From a virus: 5,309 bases of DNA. Below, piece by piece: positions 1 to 5,309 of the stretch. The position numbers were made by a program, and so were the translations under genes. Each line of letters opens with the position of its first letter. Within the stretch, counting starts at the first letter, position 1. The stretch lies in IMG/VR virus record IMGVR_UViG_3300017783_003484, positions 1-5,309 of that record, one strand, 5' to 3'. Under the pieces are notes generated by a model that was not told the DNA's origin, searched no databases, and saw only the letters and a list, made by a program, of their open reading frames with translations.

Positions 1-22
1 GCTTTCATTCGTGAACATTATA
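1..22. repeat. Terminal direct repeat, left copy (circular-assembly overlap)
   Basis: GCTTTCATTCGTGAACATTATA at 1-22 is identical to 5288-5309. Confidence 0.97.
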
Positions 23-1736: not shown

Positions 1737-3716
1737 TTATAAATTTGGTATTACTTTTGCGCTCATTTTTCTACGTGCTGTATTTTTAACTCCTATCTGC
1801 ATCCAATAGTTTTGGGCATCTAAACTGGTCTGGGCAAATATAAAATTGAATTTACTCGGATCTATATACGTTGTTAAATCTTCTATTCCGCTCTCTCCAA
1901 TATCATATCTTCTGTTCAATGTCATAAACATATCTTGTTCTACTTCACTGAAACGTCCATATACCTTGTTAACTGCTGTCATATAGTTTATCCAGGCAGG
2001 CTGTTTCCCTGCTGAACTAAATACTACTGAATCACTATTATCAATCGTCGTATCTTGCCATGCCATCTGGTCCGTTATTAAATCTTGATATCCTATAGCA
2101 TCTAAAGCTGGCTTGTGCAAATCATCCATCGTTGCGAGGTTCATGTCCCAGTCATTACCCTGACTATAGTCAATCCTTGGCGTTATACTTGCTATCCCTA
2201 TTATATATGATGGCTCGTCGCATTTAACCTTAATCTTTCCTCCTTTTGTTTTATCGGTCATTGCTCCTCGTCCTGCGAGAGTTCCTAATGGCTGTGTATT
2301 TCCATCTATCTCACTATCTGAATTACTTATAACTTCCTCAAACGCTAGTTCTCTTATTAAGCTTCCCATATACATTGGGCTCTCAATACTCTTACTTCTT
2401 TCTTGGGTATATACTGCATCCAACCAATCATCATAAGATCCCCCGCTTATTGCAATCCTGTTCAGCATTGTATATACTTTCATCGCTAGGTTCAAACTGT
2501 CAATCGTGAATTCATCTCCTGCCGTGCTCACTGCTGTCACCTCATTTATTCCGTTCGTCCCATCTATCCATTCTGTGCTAATCCAGTTATTAAATAAATC
2601 ACTTTGGTACGTTTTAATCCCTAATCCTTCCATCGGAAAGCTTGCGCTCATTCTCGATACTCCATCTACTGTCGCGCTTTTTCCAAACGCTCCATATGGT
2701 AGGTCACTAGAGTTATTAATTAAGAATTGGCTTTCTATTGGTGTATGCTGCAATATGCTCAATCTCATATTATCTATCACATCCAAGTTAAACTCTTCCA
2801 ATACTGGTGTTACTCCTACATTTTTAGGTAATACAGTTTGTTGTTCTACCTCCCATCTTTGGCTCCCACTACCCGTTTGTCCTGTACATGTTAGGCTTGC
2901 TTCATCTTCGTTCCATACTATTGTCGGGAATATTAAATCAAACGTTCTTGGTGTCCCGTTCTCTAACATTTCTATTAGCGTAGCATCTGGCTCGCTGGCT
3001 CCTGAACCAAAGTATAATTTTACTCCTGCTCCTGTTATACTCGCATCAATCTCGTTATCTAATAGACTTCCAATAACTTGTCCAGTACTATCTATCTTAT
3101 AGGCTTGCCCTATTTCTTCTCCTACACTATCATCATCTGTATGTATGAAGAATCCTCTTTCTTCTTGTTTATTCGCGTAGTAGTTTTTGTATATATCCCA
3201 ATATGCTAATAATGGTACTGCGTTGAATAATCTTGTCGTGAAAACGTCATCTCCTGTCGGTCTTCCAATTCCGCTTATACCTAGGTACTTTAATAAACAA
3301 CTTCCTGCAATCTGTCTATTATTTTTCAATAGTTCTTCTACTGCTTCTCCGTTGTTTCTTGCTGTTACTGCTATCTGTGGTAACTTTACATTATCCATTT
3401 CCATCCCTATACCTAGCTCATTCATGTGCAACCTTGCGTTGTACAATCTTATCGGTACTTGAAATACATCTAACTGCACTTTCATACTTCCAAATAATGG
3501 TCCTACTGTTGGTAGTGTCTTTACGTCTGCAAATAAATCTATATCGAATGAATCTCCCGGAAGTCCCAGTACTTTCATGAATGGTACTAACGTTCCTACG
3601 GCCATACTACTTCTAAAAGCGTAGCTTAGATCGTGCGTGCTTCTATTGTAATGCTTTAGGCTTATATTCTGTTTATTCCCAGACCCTAATCGGTCTCCTC
3701 CTATTGTTGTTTTCAT
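1737..3716 (-). CDS. VP1: Major capsid protein (VP1, phiX F-like jelly-roll, 659 aa)
   Basis: This is the longest ORF. The N-terminus NRSTHDLSYAFRSSMAVGTLVPFMKVLGLPGDSFDIDL...FQVPIRLYN and the C-terminus ...NYWMQIGVKNTARRKMSAKVIPNL match the conserved ends of Microviridae VP1. The size fits the long-insertion Alpavirinae-like class rather than a typical gokushovirus VP1. Confidence 0.97.
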   Translation of the reverse strand: MKTTIGGDRLGSGNKQNISLKHYNRSTHDLSYAFRSSMAVGTLVPFMKVLGLPGDSFDIDLFADVKTLPTVGPLFGSMKVQLDVFQVPIRLYNARLHMNELGIGMEMDNVKLPQIAVTARNNGEAVEELLKNNRQIAGSCLLKYLGISGIGRPTGDDVFTTRLFNAVPLLAYWDIYKNYYANKQEERGFFIHTDDDSVGEEIGQAYKIDSTGQVIGSLLDNEIDASITGAGVKLYFGSGASEPDATLIEMLENGTPRTFDLIFPTIVWNEDEASLTCTGQTGSGSQRWEVEQQTVLPKNVGVTPVLEEFNLDVIDNMRLSILQHTPIESQFLINNSSDLPYGAFGKSATVDGVSRMSASFPMEGLGIKTYQSDLFNNWISTEWIDGTNGINEVTAVSTAGDEFTIDSLNLAMKVYTMLNRIAISGGSYDDWLDAVYTQERSKSIESPMYMGSLIRELAFEEVISNSDSEIDGNTQPLGTLAGRGAMTDKTKGGKIKVKCDEPSYIIGIASITPRIDYSQGNDWDMNLATMDDLHKPALDAIGYQDLITDQMAWQDTTIDNSDSVVFSSAGKQPAWINYMTAVNKVYGRFSEVEQDMFMTLNRRYDIGESGIEDLTTYIDPSKFNFIFAQTSLDAQNYWMQIGVKNTARRKMSAKVIPNL

Positions 3717-3964
3717 TTATCTGTTTTTAAACTATCGATTAATAATATGCATACCTGCACTATTCTGTTCCAATTAATGTTTGACAATTCGTCCAACACC
3801 TCTTGTTCTGTTTTTTTTACTTCCGTTATTCGGTATTTTCCCATACCTCCGAAAAACTCTTTTTTTTCAGTATCTCCAATAACAACAAAAGGACTGTCTT
3901 TGACGTCCTTCCTTGTTATCAGTTCTGTATTACTCGAAGAGTCTTGTTTGCCTATTTTGCTCAT
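3713..3964 (-). CDS. Hypothetical 83-aa protein immediately upstream of VP1
   Basis: ORF from the track. Its TGA stop overlaps the VP1 ATG (ATGA at 3713-3716), which suggests translational coupling. No recognisable domain and no TM segment. Confidence 0.65.
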   Translation of the reverse strand: MSKIGKQDSSSNTELITRKDVKDSPFVVIGDTEKKEFFGGMGKYRITEVKKTEQEVLDELSNINWNRIVQVCILLIDSLKTDK

Positions 3965-4133
3965 ATTCTAATGTATAAATTTTTAAATAATATTTTTCTT
4001 TATCTACTGTCTTATTGCTACTTCCAACCTTAACCCAGCGTTCTCTTTCAATCCTTGACTTACTCAATAACTCCCCAGTCTCAATATCGACATGTTCTGT
4101 CTGTGTGAAGAATCTTTTTTTACTCTCCCACAT
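3930..4133 (-). CDS. Hypothetical 67-aa protein
   Basis: ORF from the track, on the same strand as all real genes. It overlaps the previous ORF by 14 nt and the next by 35 nt. It is charged and slightly basic, with no recognisable domain. Confidence 0.55.
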   Translation of the reverse strand: MWESKKRFFTQTEHVDIETGELLSKSRIERERWVKVGSSNKTVDKEKYYLKIYTLEYEQNRQTRLFE

Positions 4134-4278
4134 AATCGTCTGGTTTGACGTCTTCCCCGCCTATTTTACCATCTCCGTCTAAATCGGTCTTTAACCATCT
4201 TTCCAACGCATCTAATAATAATGCGAATAATCTTTCTAGTGCTTTTACTAGAATCTTGTCTACTAATTTTTTCATCAT
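4120..4278 (-). CDS. Unannotated 52-aa ORF: amphipathic helix plus an EF-hand-type DxDxDG loop
   Basis: Hand translation gives MMKKLVDKILVKALERLFALLLDALERWLKTDLDGDGKIGGEDVKPDDYVGE, with stop TAA at 4120-4122. Its ATG at 4278-4276 overlaps the TGA of the 115-aa ORF (ATGA, 4275-4278). The segment DLDGDGKIGGEDV (4147-4185) fits every position of the canonical EF-hand calcium-loop pattern as I remember it. It fills what would otherwise be a 141-nt gap in a tightly packed genome. Confidence 0.55.
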   Translation of the reverse strand: MMKKLVDKILVKALERLFALLLDALERWLKTDLDGDGKIGGEDVKPDDYVGE

Positions 4279-4622
4279 AAATTTTTAATATTAATAATAT
4301 AATTCGTCCCGCTATCCAGCATATTATGTAACATATTAAGGCTGTCACCTCCCAATAAAATACATCCTTTACTTTGCTCGGGTTTATCTCCAAGATGAAA
4401 TTTAATCTCTGTACGCTTATTAACTCCATATAACTCCCATAAATATTTATCAAATTTTGGGCTATATTCATACTTAACTAAATAACATCCCTCTGGACAC
4501 AAATATAACAAATTTTCAATTGTATCAAAATCGAAAACTCCTCCTTTGGTTATCAATAACTTTCCTTTAACCTTGTTTCCTTCGCTACCGTTTAAATCTC
4601 TAATCAAAAATAATTTACTCAT
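4275..4622 (-). CDS. DUF5675-like protein with a YkuD-like His/Cys signature, putatively a peptidoglycan-acting enzyme (115 aa)
   Basis: ORF from the track. The pattern G.L...F.T.EN...CPEGCY(x6)SPKF(x6)ELYGVNKRTEIKFHLGD(x6)KGCILLG matches my memory of the DUF5675 consensus (IPxGxY...SP+F...V.gR..I.IH.GN....GCI..G), a family common in Bacteroidota and their phages. His76 (4395-4397) and Gly-Cys87 (Cys at 4362-4364) are spaced as in the L,D-transpeptidase-type H...(S/x)xGC motif. There is no signal peptide. Confidence 0.75.
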   Translation of the reverse strand: MSKLFLIRDLNGSEGNKVKGKLLITKGGVFDFDTIENLLYLCPEGCYLVKYEYSPKFDKYLWELYGVNKRTEIKFHLGDKPEQSKGCILLGGDSLNMLHNMLDSGTNYIINIKNL

Positions 4623-4698
4623 CTCTATAACATATTAAAATTACTACTCCAGTCATTATCGCAAAACCTATACTTACTACTAACGATACTATTATCAT
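4615..4698 (-). CDS. Unannotated 27-aa single-pass membrane peptide, a candidate holin-like or membrane-depolarising component
   Basis: Hand translation gives MIIVSLVVSIGFAIMTGVVILICYRDE. An in-frame stop lies two codons upstream, at 4702-4704. The peptide is an unbroken hydrophobic stretch of about 23 residues with a charged RDE tail. Its last codons and its TAA overlap the start of the 115-aa ORF by 8 nt (minus strand ATGAGTAA, 4615-4622). Confidence 0.5.
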   Translation of the reverse strand: MIIVSLVVSIGFAIMTGVVILICYRDE

Positions 4699-4777
4699 AA
4701 CTTACCAAACTTTTTCCTATCTTTTTGCTTATGGCTCTGCGTGGCAACGCAAATTTATTTTCCTTATTCCCCAAATT

Positions 4778-5308
4778 TTACCTAGCGCCTTCAGCGCTCA
4801 ATAGTTCTTCTCTGCTTTTCAGGTACTCTTCTATGGTCCAATCTTCTCTCGTTCCGTACCCGAATTTCTTATTTTTCTTTCTTGCTTCTTCTAGAAGAAT
4901 CATATAGTTCTCATTGCCTTTACTTACGTCTATCTTTTTACCATCTACCCACCTTACTTGTTCGTCCAGTTTTTCTAGCCATAATTTTTCTCTTTCATCA
5001 TCATTATATATATGATTTCTATAATACTTCGGCATCCCTAATTTTAGCCCTGTCCTCGTTCTGTACACCTCATTAGTTTTACTGGTCTTATACTTATTTC
5101 GCGCAGCATCTGGTCTTTTTAAATATCCACTCCCTATACCTGCTGAAGTCAATATCTTAGTTTTATAGCCCTTATGCTTTTCGTCGGTCTTATATATATA
5201 TTTTACTATATAATTTACAGTTTTTTCGTTTACGTAATCTCCTACATATACATGACCATACTTCCATATTTCGCTAATCGTTTCGGTGCTTTCATTCGTG
5301 AACATTAT
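4778..5308 (-). CDS. VP4: Replication initiator protein (VP4/Rep), C-terminal part. The unique portion is 4778-5287; 5288-5308 duplicates 1-21.
   Basis: This is track ORF 4778..5305. Its apparent start Met (5305-5303, the same bases as 18-16) is internal, because the frame stays open to the window end and continues from 1..429. It contains the catalytic di-tyrosine motif NYIVKYIYK (YxxxY, 5189-5212) downstream of the HUH motif. The joined protein is 312 aa. Confidence 0.93.
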   Translation of the reverse strand: MMFTNESTETISEIWKYGHVYVGDYVNEKTVNYIVKYIYKTDEKHKGYKTKILTSAGIGSGYLKRPDAARNKYKTSKTNEVYRTRTGLKLGMPKYYRNHIYNDDEREKLWLEKLDEQVRWVDGKKIDVSKGNENYMILLEEARKKNKKFGYGTREDWTIEEYLKSREELLSAEGAR

Positions 5309-5309
5309 A
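5288..5309. repeat. Terminal direct repeat, right copy (circular-assembly overlap)
   Basis: An exact 22-nt copy of 1-22. The Rep reading frame is continuous across it, so the molecule is circular with a 5287-nt unit. Confidence 0.97.

What the first reader, a model, noticed from the sequence alone, without database searches (positions are those of the whole stretch)
4120..4698. Start/stop-coupled three-gene cassette (TM micro-peptide, DUF5675/YkuD-like enzyme, helix+EF-hand peptide): candidate lysis system in a non-phiX microvirus
Three consecutive minus-strand ORFs are linked by overlapping stop/start signals: ATGAGTAA at 4615-4622 and ATGA at 4275-4278. Together they sit between Rep and the capsid block, directly downstream of a 79-nt spacer. 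The first product is essentially a bare transmembrane helix. The second looks like a cell-wall-acting enzyme without a signal peptide. The third is an amphipathic helix with a calcium-loop motif. A membrane-permeabilising component plus a secretion-signal-less wall enzyme is the logic of holin-endolysin lysis in tailed phages. It is not what is established for Microviridae: phiX174-type phages use the single protein E against MraY, and I know of no defined lysis gene for gokushovirus- or Alpavirinae-like phages. From memory, M15-type peptidases have been noted in a few environmental microviruses, but I do not recall a DUF5675-based cassette being described. The functional assignment is inference.
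Basis: partly seen in the sequence, partly recalled or inferred. Interest (0 to 1): 0.85.

Follow-up and report, generated by a model that had tools for sequence, protein, structure and literature searches.

The report
Microvirus lysis module with hidden gene
A small single-stranded-DNA phage carries a cell-wall-cutting enzyme of an uncharacterised family, and hidden inside that gene in another reading frame is a conserved membrane protein; with a conserved 52-residue helper peptide these look like a tailed-phage-style kit for bursting the host, which microviruses are not usually thought to have.

Summary
The three minus-strand ORFs and their overlaps are exactly as described, but such overlaps continue through to the capsid gene, so they do not define a cassette. 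ORF2 (4275-4622) is a true DUF5675 protein. It keeps the His...Ser-x-Gly-Cys motif of L,D-transpeptidase-fold enzymes such as Tlde1 and YkuD. In tailed phages its homologues sit between holin-like and spanin-like genes, so an endolysin role is well supported by context but not shown. ORF3 (4120-4278) belongs to a conserved peptide family specific to microviruses: a 30-residue amphipathic helix followed by DxDxDGxIG. It follows DUF5675 in almost every relative, even where gene order differs. It is not a true EF-hand. ORF1, the 27-aa transmembrane peptide, is not conserved and may be spurious. The +1 frame of the 3' two-thirds of the DUF5675 gene (4166-4471, 101 aa) is free of stop codons in 13 of 17 genomes. 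Its product is conserved far beyond synonymous-shuffle expectation and has one transmembrane segment plus a basic tail. In some genomes it is fused to the ORF3 peptide. Best reading: an accessory lysis module made of an endolysin, an overprinted holin-like protein and the peptide. None of this has been tested experimentally.

The parts
4275..4622 (-). DUF5675 protein, 115 aa, no signal peptide: candidate endolysin with an L,D-transpeptidase fold
   Evidence: Pfam PF18925 E=1.8e-13. 17 close homologues, mostly on contigs of 5-6 kb. AlphaFold2 pLDDT 90.7. Best PDB fold matches are LdtMt2, weak. BFVD matches are DUF5675 proteins plus one annotated endolysin.
4359..4397 (-). Putative catalytic motif H76-x7-S84-K-G86-C87-I88 of the DUF5675 protein
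   Evidence: H76, G86 and C87 are invariant in the clade and at least 90% conserved in 141 diverse DUF5675 proteins. The pattern matches the L,D-transpeptidase motif H...(S/T)xGCh; Tlde1a has H121, S128, H129 and C131.
4166..4471 (-). Overprinted +1-frame ORF of 101 aa. It overlaps the 3' 197 nt of the DUF5675 gene and the first 113 nt of the peptide gene. Architecture: N-terminal MNxxxNLxxxYGSxMEL, one transmembrane segment, basic tail. Candidate holin-like protein.
   Evidence: Listed, where it is the longest same-strand alternative-frame ORF in the window (the next is 45 aa). The +1 frame is stop-free over the last 39-82 codons in 13 of 17 genomes against 3-14 expected, p<=0.003 in most. 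+1-frame amino-acid similarity has z=8.7-10 against synonymous shuffles in the 3' region only. The architecture is conserved.
4286..4342 (-). Predicted transmembrane segment ALICYIICWIAGRIILLIL (residues 44-62 of the +1 ORF)
   Evidence: Kyte-Doolittle 19-residue mean 2.54. Partly expected from codon composition in this genome (null 2.27, p=0.2) but above the null in most relatives.
4120..4278 (-). 52-aa peptide: amphipathic helix (residues 2-29), then D32-L-D-G-D-G-K-I-G40, then an acidic tail. Conserved partner of DUF5675 and of the transmembrane ORF.
   Evidence: Present immediately downstream of DUF5675 in nearly all clade relatives and in genomes with a different gene order. About 50 homologues, almost all on contigs of 4.5-6 kb. 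E26, D32, D36 and G37 are invariant. Helix 2-29, pLDDT 86. Hydrophobic moment about 0.65.
4159..4185 (-). DxDxDGxIG loop of the peptide. The same nucleotides encode the KDRFRRRW* end of the +1 ORF.
   Evidence: Read directly from the sequence. Motif conservation.
4615..4698 (-). 27-aa hydrophobic micro-ORF (MIIVSLVVSIGFAIMTGVVILICYRDE), lineage-specific, reality uncertain
   Evidence: It lies in about 65 nt that the homologous spacers of L026, L001 and L040 lack. In strains more than 99% identical it stays open, with one synonymous change and one V-to-I change. A comparable 23-aa transmembrane ORF with an ATGA overlap exists only in L009.
4738..4751 (.). Conserved hairpin TGCGT-GGCA-ACGCA in the Rep-proximal spacer, upstream of the module
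   Evidence: The stem shows compensatory changes in relatives: GCGT/ACGC in the window, GCGC/GCGC in L026, CCGT/ACGG in L040. A conserved ..CCATA.. follows.

Best explanation
This is an accessory host-lysis module of a non-phiX microvirus, probably infecting Bacteroidota. It sits in the variable slot just downstream of Rep.

Component 1 is a 115-aa cytoplasmic (signal-less) DUF5675 enzyme. It has an L,D-transpeptidase-type fold and a His/Cys active site. By analogy with Tlde1a and other hydrolytic YkuD-fold enzymes it would cut peptidoglycan stem peptides at the meso-DAP / D-Ala position, acting as L,D-carboxypeptidase or endopeptidase. I read it as the endolysin.

Component 2 is a 101-aa protein overprinted in the +1 frame of the 3' part of the same gene. 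It has one transmembrane segment and a basic tail. I read it as the holin-like factor that gives the enzyme access to the wall.

Component 3 is the 52-aa amphipathic-helix peptide with a DxDxDG loop. It works with the membrane protein, since in several genomes the two are one polypeptide. It could be the holin's soluble domain or regulator, or a membrane-active helper that depends on divalent cations.

The upstream 27-aa ORF is at most a lineage-specific extra.

Shown: the homology, the motif, the conservation, the dual coding, the co-occurrence and the context in tailed phages. Inferred: the enzymatic specificity, the holin function, the role of the peptide, and the lysis phenotype.
For: DUF5675 assignment. 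Pfam E=1.8e-13. The profile finds 2264 relatives.

Link to L,D-transpeptidases. H76, S84, G86 and C87 are conserved. 68 of 141 DUF5675 proteins also hit Pfam Tlde1_dom (best 4.5e-6) and 16 of 141 hit YkuD. Within the microvirus clade the figures are 8 of 17 and 3 of 17. Foldseek gives LdtMt2 at probability 0.89 and 0.69, TM 0.47-0.49. CrAss-like phage homologues are annotated 'transpeptidase catalytic domain protein'. A 2026 preprint calls DUF5675 'C82-like'. Tlde1a is a proven L,D-carboxypeptidase/transpeptidase that kills cells from the periplasm.

Endolysin context in tailed phages. Cellulophaga phi39:1 has multi-TM gp27, a 33-aa transmembrane gp29 with an ATGA overlap, DUF5675 gp30, then N-terminal-TM gp31 and gp32. 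Ingeline_1 has a 44-aa transmembrane gene 37, DUF5675 gene 38, then gene 39 with a lipobox and a C-terminal transmembrane segment (u-spanin-like). The same pattern occurs in L013-L016 and L018.

Overprinted gene. Stop-codon depletion is specific to the +1 frame and to the 3' region. Synonymous-codon identity has z=5.4, +1 amino-acid similarity z=8.7-10, and the 5' control z<=2.1. An AC-to-CA double change between near-identical strains is T106Q in DUF5675 but silent in both +1 codons. The N-terminus / TM / basic-tail architecture is conserved.

Peptide. It co-occurs with DUF5675 across three different gene orders. It is fused in frame to the transmembrane ORF in L004-L007 (P0187), and in frame with the +1 ORF in L002/L003 (hydrophobic stretch weak there) and L037. 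L042 carries a 77-aa version with a hydrophobic N-terminal extension and no DUF5675 gene in the stretch held. In L175, which has no DUF5675, a free-standing 36-aa transmembrane peptide is coupled by ATGA to the peptide.

Accessory nature. VP1-related genomes without DUF5675 keep the 67-aa and 83-aa genes but carry other small ORFs in this slot.
Against: There is no experimental evidence for any component and no cultured host.

The fold similarity to solved L,D-transpeptidases is weak: no Foldseek PDB hit at E<=0.001 and no PDB sequence hit. The window protein itself does not hit Tlde1_dom or YkuD.

Tlde1-type carboxypeptidase activity alone is not a classical, rapid endolysin activity.

The hydrophobicity of the +1 product is partly a by-product of T-rich wobble positions (in the window, observed 2.54 against null 2.27). 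L002/L003 lack a convincing transmembrane segment in that frame, and L009, L029, L043 and L044 lack the long open +1 frame. The genomes tested are related, so the p-values are not independent. The +1 ORF is essentially unannotated in 5.8 billion proteins: one called homologue.

DUF5675 domains also occur inside very large virion-type proteins (L020, 1452 aa; Ralstonia phage RP31, 1251 aa). That fits an entry role rather than a lysis role.

No spanin equivalent was identified.
Confidence: 0.55

Rival explanations
1. The 27-aa transmembrane micro-ORF is the holin, DUF5675 is the endolysin and the 52-aa peptide is a calcium-dependent third component, forming a translationally coupled three-gene cassette. 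The +1 ORF is not expressed.
For: The ORFs and overlaps exist. Small transmembrane ORFs directly upstream of DUF5675, some with an ATGA overlap, recur in Cellulophaga phages (33 and 44 aa), in L010 (37 aa) and in microvirus L009 (23 aa). In near-identical strains ORF1 stays open with only a synonymous change and a V-to-I change.
Against: ORF1 is absent from every relative at around 50% DUF5675 identity. The homologous spacers are about 65 nt shorter. It has no charged cytoplasmic tail. ORF1 is a 27-codon hydrophobic ORF in an AT-rich (37% GC) genome, and that alone is not above chance. This version does not explain the strong +1-frame signal.
Confidence: 0.15
2. The membrane protein and the amphipathic DxDxDG peptide together are the real lysis or membrane-lesion effector, a two-part system specific to microviruses that can be split, fused or overprinted. 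DUF5675 is a dispensable booster picked up from tailed phages.
For: L175 has a transmembrane peptide coupled by ATGA to the helix/DIDGDG peptide and no DUF5675 anywhere (HMM E<=1). In L042 the peptide has a hydrophobic N-terminal extension and no DUF5675 lies in the stretch held. Fusions occur in L004-L007 and L037. The peptide family is confined to microvirus-sized contigs. The helix is strongly amphipathic (hydrophobic moment about 0.65).
Against: Most genomes with the peptide also carry DUF5675 directly upstream. The transmembrane parts of L175 and L042 show no demonstrated homology to the +1 ORF. Only part of the L042 genome was seen. Nothing functional is known.
Confidence: 0.15
3. DUF5675 does not work in lysis. 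It would be a wall-remodelling or entry-associated enzyme, or a superinfection/host-takeover factor, and the small proteins would be unrelated accessory or assembly factors.
For: DUF5675 domains occur within giant virion-type proteins. The family is formally of unknown function. L,D-transpeptidase-fold enzymes include non-lytic remodelling enzymes.
Against: In at least seven tailed-phage loci the free-standing 140-150-aa DUF5675 gene sits between holin-like and spanin-like genes, after the tail genes. A T=1 microvirus has little room for an extra virion enzyme (established knowledge of microvirus capsids; inference). The tight linkage to membrane-active small proteins fits lysis.
Confidence: 0.12
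4. The open +1 frame is not a gene. It would be a relic of an ancestral N-terminal extension of the peptide ORF, or a side effect of composition and of nucleotide-level constraints such as ssDNA structure.
For: T-rich wobble positions make +1 frames hydrophobic and poor in stops. +2-frame similarity is also somewhat raised in the 3' region (z=3.2), as any wobble constraint would cause. Gene callers almost never predict it. The sequences are phylogenetically related.
Against: Synonymous shuffles keep composition and amino-acid order and still give only 3-14 open codons against 39-82 observed, in genomes about 50% diverged. All 5-12 +1-frame stops lie in the 5' part of the gene. The +1 similarity excess (z=8.7-10) far exceeds that of the +2 frame and of the 5' control. 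A start codon is conserved at the Y-E codon pair.
Confidence: 0.12

Closest known systems
Tlde1a (Salmonella T6SS effector; Pfam Tlde1_dom) and YkuD-type L,D-transpeptidases (MEROPS C82; LdtMt2, Csd6)
   Same: Conserved His...Ser-x-Gly-Cys-hydrophobic motif with the short His-to-Cys spacing seen in Tlde1a (H121...S128-H129-G130-C131 against H76...S84-K85-G86-C87). Small single-domain beta-rich fold. Recurrent weak Pfam cross-hits. Acts, or is presumed to act, on peptidoglycan stem peptides, and is toxic from the periplasmic side.
   Different: About 115 aa against about 170 aa. The residue before Gly-Cys is Lys/Arg, not His. No disulfides and no capping subdomain were shown. Phage-encoded and signal-less rather than injected by a T6SS. 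No immunity protein. Fold match to solved structures is only marginal (E=0.06).
Holin-endolysin-spanin cassettes of tailed Bacteroidota phages that use DUF5675 (Cellulophaga phages phi39:1 gp27-gp32, Ingeline_1 genes 37-39)
   Same: Homologous enzyme (34-48% identity over the core). No signal peptide. A small transmembrane protein is translationally coupled to it. The hosts are probably related.
   Different: In the microvirus the membrane protein is overprinted inside the enzyme gene. No lipoprotein or spanin-like gene is present. An extra amphipathic DxDxDG peptide is present that the tailed-phage loci lack.
M15 peptidase genes of Alpavirinae, Gokushovirinae and Occultatumvirinae microviruses (Roux et al. 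2012, PMC3394797; PMC11499846; Kirchberger et al. 2022, PMC9239249)
   Same: An accessory, horizontally acquired wall peptidase in a microvirus, proposed to act as endolysin, located near VP4/VP1.
   Different: An unrelated enzyme family: Cys/His L,D-transpeptidase fold against zinc metallopeptidase. No overprinted membrane gene or conserved partner peptide has been reported for the M15 cases.
phiX174 gene E inside gene D, and the holin gene embedded out of frame in endolysin gene ply187 of S. aureus phage 187 (Loessner et al. 1999, cited)
   Same: A small single-TM lysis protein encoded in an alternative frame within another gene. In phage 187 the host gene is the endolysin gene itself.
   Different: phiX E is a single-gene lysis protein that inhibits MraY and has no partner enzyme (established knowledge). 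No sequence similarity to either protein. Here the overprinted ORF also runs into the next gene.
EF-hand and DxDxDG calcium-binding loops
   Same: D-x-D-x-D-G-x-I consensus preceded by a helix. An invariant acidic residue (E26) lies upstream.
   Different: Below the Pfam threshold. No exiting helix and no conserved position-12 Glu. Many family members stop 3-9 residues after the loop. Calcium binding is untested.

Membership tests
Pfam DUF5675 (PF18925) | Score above the curated gathering threshold of the family HMM | tested here: met
   50.8 bits against a cut-off of 26.7, E=1.8e-13, residues 16-103. All 17 clade members and 141 of 141 wider relatives match.
L,D-transpeptidase-fold superfamily (YkuD / Tlde1; MEROPS C82) | Catalytic motif His-x(n)-(Ser/Thr)-x-Gly-Cys-hydrophobic | tested here: met
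   H76-x7-S84-K85-G86-C87-I88. H76, G86 and C87 are invariant in the clade and at least 90% conserved in 141 DUF5675 proteins. The spacing resembles Tlde1a, not the 14-17 of classical enzymes.
L,D-transpeptidase-fold superfamily (YkuD / Tlde1; MEROPS C82) | Significant sequence-profile or structural similarity to a solved or curated member | tested here: inconclusive
   The window protein has no Tlde1_dom or YkuD hit at E<=1. Among family members, 68 of 141 hit Tlde1_dom (best 4.5e-6) and 16 of 141 hit YkuD (best 1.3e-3). Foldseek gives LdtMt2 at E=0.06, probability 0.89, TM 0.47. PDB sequence searches were negative.
L,D-transpeptidase-fold superfamily (YkuD / Tlde1; MEROPS C82) | Cys-dependent acyl-enzyme activity on tetrapeptide stems (carboxypeptidase, transpeptidase or endopeptidase) | not testable with these tools
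   Needs purified protein and muropeptide LC-MS.
Canonical (holin-dependent) phage endolysin | Soluble wall-degrading enzyme without a secretion signal, encoded next to holin and spanin genes | tested here: met
   No N-terminal hydrophobic segment (MSKLFLIRDLNGSEG...). Homologues are flanked by holin-like and u-spanin-like ORFs in tailed phages. This is context evidence only.
Canonical (holin-dependent) phage endolysin | Demonstrated peptidoglycan degradation and lysis | not testable with these tools
I found no experimental report for any DUF5675 protein.
Holin (functional class), applied to the +1 ORF 4166-4471 | Small protein with at least one transmembrane domain and a charged, hydrophilic C-terminus, encoded in the lysis cassette | tested here: met
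   101 aa, one segment with Kyte-Doolittle 2.54, basic tail ...KMVKDRFRRRW. The same layout occurs in 8 relatives. The hydrophobicity is partly compositional.
Holin (functional class), applied to the +1 ORF 4166-4471 | Timed, lethal permeabilisation of the membrane that releases endolysin | not testable with these tools
   Requires expression and complementation assays.
Overprinted (overlapping) protein-coding gene | An alternative frame kept open and under purifying selection across diverged genomes | tested here: met
   Open for 39-82 codons in 13 of 17 genomes against 3-14 expected. +1 amino-acid similarity z=8.7-10 and synonymous-codon identity z=5.4 in the overlap only.
EF-hand (Pfam EF-hand_1 / EF-hand_7), applied to the 52-aa peptide | Helix-loop-helix with a 12-residue loop ending in a bidentate Glu/Asp, scoring above the Pfam threshold | tested here: not met
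   13.4 bits against 25.4 and 13.6 against 30. No second helix in the model. Position 12 is not conserved, and homologues end 3-9 residues after DxDxDG. Only the DxDxDG motif itself is present.
phiX174 E-type single-gene lysis protein | N-terminal transmembrane domain with a conserved Pro, MraY inhibition, no partner enzyme | tested here: not met
   The transmembrane segment is central (residues 44-62), there is no sequence similarity, and a wall enzyme is encoded alongside. MraY inhibition cannot be tested here.

The most novel reading that the evidence does not exclude
Microviruses outside the phiX group carry a previously unrecognised two-part membrane-lesion system: a small single-TM protein plus a roughly 45-aa amphipathic peptide ending in a DxDxDGxIG cation-binding loop. 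The two parts are modular. They can be separate and coupled (L175), fused (L004-L007, L037; an N-terminally extended version in L042), or have the transmembrane half overprinted inside an acquired L,D-transpeptidase-fold endolysin gene (this genome). This system would be the long-sought general lysis device of a large set of gokushovirus-like phages, with the cation loop possibly acting in lysis timing or envelope destabilisation.
Probability: 0.25. Interest if true: 0.85.

Novelty: new variant of a known kind. Interest (0 to 1): 0.7.

Why it matters
How microviruses other than the phiX174 group lyse their hosts is still unresolved. Recent papers still state that ssDNA phages lack the holin plus peptidoglycan-hydrolase machinery of dsDNA phages (PMC11946311). 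The largest microvirus survey explicitly left overprinted genes out because they could not be verified computationally (PMC9239249).

This locus gives a concrete, testable module. It contains an enzyme of an uncharacterised but widespread family (DUF5675; 2264 relatives at 50% clustering). In tailed phages of Bacteroidota that family appears to be an unrecognised endolysin class. The locus also holds a statistically well-supported overprinted membrane gene, and a new small-peptide family restricted to microvirus-sized contigs.

If confirmed, it would do three things. It would add an L,D-transpeptidase-fold class to the endolysin repertoire. It would show holin-endolysin lysis, with a holin inside the endolysin gene, in a 5.3-kb ssDNA phage. 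It would also supply small lytic parts for Bacteroidota, which are hard to target.

Tried and rejected
- PDB sequence searches with the protein and with a 141-sequence profile found no meaningful hit. Fatty-acid-binding protein and prolyl-tRNA synthetase appeared at E>0.03 and I judged them spurious.
- Foldseek against the PDB gave nothing at E<=0.001. Only marginal LdtMt2 matches were kept, as a lead.
- EF-hand membership of ORF3 was rejected.
- I looked for ORF1 homologues or positional equivalents in 17 related genomes. Only L009 has one, plus a weak TTG-start ORF in L024. ORF1 and the +1 ORF are not in the 15-billion-protein collection as exact sequences.
- A profile search with the +1 ORF family found a single called protein, so there is no free-standing homologue to lean on.
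- A DNA-pattern scan for DIDGDGxIG in metagenomes mostly recovered an unrelated-looking bacterial 63-aa coiled-coil family and repeats in large proteins, not microviruses. The same scan of viral contigs gave only 4 loci.
- I tested whether VP1-related genomes lacking DUF5675 carry an M15 peptidase or the peptide in the same slot. They do not; they carry other small ORFs.
- Promoter-like sites are not above shuffle expectation (6 against 6.5).
- I considered programmed frameshifting to join the +1 ORF to the peptide. No canonical slippery heptamer is visible in the sequence (inference), so I did not pursue it.
- NCBIfam and PHROGs gave no functional names for the small proteins.
Full report
1. 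What is in the window

The 5309-nt window is a complete circular microvirus genome with a 22-nt terminal repeat, so the true length is about 5287 nt. GC content is 37%. Every gene lies on the minus strand. The order is:
- Rep, which wraps around the window ends and is 312 aa in near-identical contigs;
- a 79-nt spacer;
- ORF1, 27 aa (4615-4698);
- ORF2, 115 aa (4275-4622);
- ORF3, 52 aa (4120-4278);
- a 67-aa gene (3930-4133);
- an 83-aa gene (3713-3964);
- VP1 (1737-3716, Phage_F);
- a 116-aa gene;
- the VP2 pilot protein (431-1246).

The same kind of overlap links ORF3 to the 67-aa gene (14 nt), the 67-aa to the 83-aa gene (35 nt) and the 83-aa gene to VP1 (ATGA). Coupling is therefore a property of this 96%-coding genome, not a mark of a three-gene unit.

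2. ORF2

ORF2 is a bona fide DUF5675 protein (PF18925, E=1.8e-13, above the curated cut-off). It has 16 close homologues at 42-59% identity, mostly on contigs of 5-6 kb. A profile of them finds 2264 relatives among 1.84 billion cluster representatives.

The clade alignment shows H76, G86 and C87 invariant within FH-x-G-x4-HS(R/K)GCILL. These residues stay at least 90% conserved across 141 diverse DUF5675 proteins. This is the H...(S/T)xGC-hydrophobic motif of L,D-transpeptidase-fold enzymes. The short His-Cys spacing resembles Tlde1a (H121, S128, H129, C131), a crystallographically and biochemically characterised L,D-carboxypeptidase/transpeptidase toxin (PMC9638812).

Supporting the link, 68 of 141 DUF5675 proteins also hit Pfam Tlde1_dom (best E=4.5e-6) and 16 of 141 hit YkuD. 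In the microvirus clade the figures are 8 of 17 and 3 of 17, all below threshold. The AlphaFold2 model is confident (pLDDT 90.7). Its only sensible PDB neighbours are LdtMt2 chains, and those matches are marginal (E=0.06-0.2, probability 0.89-0.69, TM 0.47-0.49). PDB sequence searches were negative.

In BFVD the model matches DUF5675 proteins, DUF5675 domains inside proteins of more than 1000 aa, and one annotated endolysin. CrAss-like phage homologues are annotated 'transpeptidase catalytic domain protein'. A 2026 preprint proposed on structural grounds that DUF5675 is 'C82-like', and in the passages I read it reports no activity for that protein. The 'YkuD-like wall enzyme' reading is thus well supported as homology but unproven as activity.

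3. Context in tailed phages

The free-standing 140-150-aa DUF5675 gene occupies the endolysin slot.
- In Cellulophaga phage phi39:1 it is gp30. It follows the tail/pectate-lyase genes, a multi-TM gp27, an N-terminal-TM coiled-coil gp28 and a 33-aa transmembrane gp29 whose stop overlaps the gp30 start. The N-terminal-TM proteins gp31 and gp32 follow it.
- In Ingeline_1 a 44-aa transmembrane gene precedes it. A protein with a lipobox and a C-terminal transmembrane segment, the layout of a unimolecular spanin, follows it.
- Loci L013, L014, L015, L016 and L018 show the same pattern: a two- to four-TM holin-like ORF, then DUF5675, then a lipobox/C-terminal-TM ORF.

This is the strongest argument that DUF5675 is an endolysin that needs a membrane lesion to reach the wall.

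4. ORF3

ORF3 belongs to a real, conserved family. A peptide of 36-55 aa lies immediately downstream of DUF5675 in essentially every relative recovered. It has a roughly 30-residue amphipathic helix followed by D-[LI]-[DN]-x-[DN]-G-x-[IV]-[GA]. The pairing holds in genomes with other gene orders: L035 (VP2, DUF5675, peptide..., Rep, VP1), L043/L044 (DUF5675, peptide, VP2) and L173.

A profile search found about 50 members, nearly all on contigs of 4.5-6 kb. The tailed-phage loci have none. E26, D32, D36 and G37 are invariant. The helix spans residues 2-29 (pLDDT 86) and has a high hydrophobic moment (about 0.65). Net charge is about +2 on the helix and about -3 on the tail.

It is not an EF-hand. 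Pfam scores are below threshold, there is no second helix, and many members end 3-9 residues after the loop.

5. ORF1

ORF1 is not conserved. Among 17 related genomes only L009 has a comparable 23-aa transmembrane ORF overlapping the DUF5675 start. In the closest spacers (L026, L001, L040) the sequence that encodes ORF1 is simply absent. In four contigs more than 99% identical to the window, ORF1 stays open with one synonymous change and one V-to-I change. That is too little to judge. Small transmembrane ORFs upstream of DUF5675 in tailed phages keep ORF1 plausible, but no more than that.

6. A fourth, overprinted gene

One search lists a 101-aa minus-strand ORF at 4166-4471, in the +1 frame of ORF2. 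It is the longest same-strand alternative-frame ORF in the genome.

Across 17 genomes the +1 frame of the DUF5675 gene has no stop over its last 39-82 codons in 13 cases. Synonymous shuffles, which keep protein sequence and codon usage, give a mean of 3-14 codons (p<=0.003 in most). All 5-12 +1-frame stops cluster in the 5' part, and the +2 frame is full of stops.

In the overlap region the +1-frame translations are much more alike than shuffles predict (z=10; z=8.7 with revised scoring). Synonymous-codon identity is raised there too (z=5.4). The 5' region shows nothing (z<=2.1). The +2 frame shows only the smaller rise expected from any wobble constraint (z=3.2).

Between near-identical strains, an AC-to-CA double substitution changes DUF5675 (T106Q) but is silent in both +1 codons.

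The products share an N-terminus (MN...L...YGS.ME., with its ATG created by the conserved Tyr-Glu codon pair). They also share one hydrophobic segment with a central Tyr (Kyte-Doolittle 1.8-2.5) and a Lys/Arg-rich tail of variable length. The hydrophobicity is partly a by-product of T-rich wobble positions: in the window, observed 2.54 against null 2.27, p=0.2. It is significantly above the null in L001, L035, L037 and L043. The ORF is practically unannotated, with one called homologue in 5.8 billion proteins.

7. Links between the parts

In L004-L007 (also P0187 and two similar proteins) the +1 ORF and the peptide are one 80-aa reading frame: transmembrane segment, basic linker, helix, DINQDGKIGK. 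L037 likewise has a single 134-aa frame, and L002/L003 a 119-120-aa frame with a weak hydrophobic part. L042 carries a 77-aa version with a hydrophobic N-terminal extension. In L038 the stop of the +1 ORF overlaps the peptide start as ATGA.

L175 is a microvirus with no DUF5675 at all. There a free-standing 36-aa transmembrane peptide with a basic tail is coupled by ATGA to the peptide.

VP1-related genomes lacking DUF5675 keep the 67-aa ('VDIETGE') and 83-aa genes but carry other small ORFs in the Rep-proximal slot, including a 39-aa transmembrane ORF in MT135417. The accessory module is therefore DUF5675 with its embedded ORF plus the peptide, and the downstream boundary near 4120 is right.

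8. Mechanism proposed

Late in infection the signal-less DUF5675 enzyme accumulates in the cytoplasm. The overprinted single-TM protein forms or triggers a lesion in the inner membrane, together with the amphipathic peptide, which is physically part of it in some genomes. The enzyme then attacks peptidoglycan stem peptides at the L,D bond, and the cell bursts. How the outer membrane is breached is unknown, because no spanin-like gene is present. The acidic cation-loop peptide is a candidate for that step, but this is speculation.

My confidence in each step:
- DUF5675 homology: about 1.
- L,D-transpeptidase-fold wall enzyme: about 0.8.
- Lysis role: about 0.6.
- The +1 ORF is a real gene: about 0.8.
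- Holin-like function of the +1 ORF: about 0.5.
- The peptide belongs to the same module: about 0.75.
- ORF1 is real: about 0.35.

9. Comparison with what is known

Candidate endolysins in microviruses are known, but as M15 metallopeptidases (PMC3394797; PMC11499846; PMC9239249). Only three papers in the library mention DUF5675, and none concerns microviruses. Searches combining microviruses with transpeptidase, holin or single-gene lysis found no description of this module.

Overprinted lysis genes are classical: phiX174 E in D, and the holin inside ply187 of S. aureus phage 187 (cited). Outside the phiX group, the main microvirus survey did not assess overprinted genes.

I therefore class this as a new variant of a known kind: holin-endolysin logic and an accessory microviral endolysin are known, but the enzyme family, the overprinted membrane gene and the partner peptide are not.

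10. Verdict

The interpretation has the right direction, but the wrong membrane component and an EF-hand assignment that does not hold. The locus is more interesting in detail than first described, though everything functional remains inference. Interest 0.7.

Noticed in passing
window 1-22 and 5288-5309: A 22-nt terminal direct repeat. The window is a circularly permuted complete genome of about 5287 nt, and Rep (312 aa in contigs L045-L048) is split across the window ends.
   Followed up: yes
window 4738-4751 (spacer 4699-4777): A conserved hairpin TGCGT-GGCA-ACGCA followed by ..GAGCCATAAGC... Relatives keep the stem through compensatory changes (L026 GCGC/GCGC, L040 CCGT/ACGG). In L026 and L040 it lies inside a C-terminal extension of Rep. 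It could be a replication-origin or nick-site hairpin, or a terminator.
   Followed up: partly
window 3930-4133 (minus) and 3713-3964 (minus): The 67-aa protein (motif W..I....VDIETGE) and the 83-aa VP3-like protein (..PF.VI......G.YR.TE....W.R) are conserved core genes of this clade. They are present even in relatives without DUF5675 (MG883728, MN311493, MT135417). The function of the 67-aa protein is unknown, with no family hit.
   Followed up: partly
L175:4504-4721: A 4978-nt microvirus without any DUF5675 gene has a 36-aa transmembrane peptide (MEQFIQTLVTWFLIFLAIAVLKNILRGVGGKQNRDK) whose stop overlaps, as ATGA, the start of a 36-aa helix/DIDGDGNVG peptide just upstream of VP2.
   Followed up: partly
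L043:1830-1988: In a different microvirus lineage the 151-aa DUF5675 gene (1709-2164) also contains a +1-frame ORF (52 aa, transmembrane-like LALIVCVGLLVLSL), but at a more 5' position. This may be an independent overprinting event.
   Followed up: no
L072:3882-4073, L123, L124, L151, L063, L125 (metagenome contigs): A family of roughly 63-aa small proteins (MG[IV]LWE[IV]VQTGLMYGQ..., coiled coil, ...DIDGDG[KR]IG-stop) found on contigs whose neighbouring ORFs include multi-TM proteins and show nothing phage-like (neighbours not annotated). It shares the 'helix plus C-terminal DIDGDGxIG' layout of the microviral peptide. One member is labelled SlyX-like by JGI. The relationship to the microviral peptide is unclear.
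   Followed up: partly
L020:3811-8169; BFVD A0A1L7N1E2 (Ralstonia phage RP31): DUF5675 domains are embedded in proteins of 1251-1452 aa in large phages. This suggests a second, virion- or ejection-associated use of the same enzyme fold.
   Followed up: no
window plus strand, e.g. 2506-3102 (198 aa), 1441-1809 (122 aa): Long antisense ORFs lie opposite VP1 and the 116-aa gene. They are typical of AT-rich coding sequence read in the antisense frame. I did not examine them.
   Followed up: no
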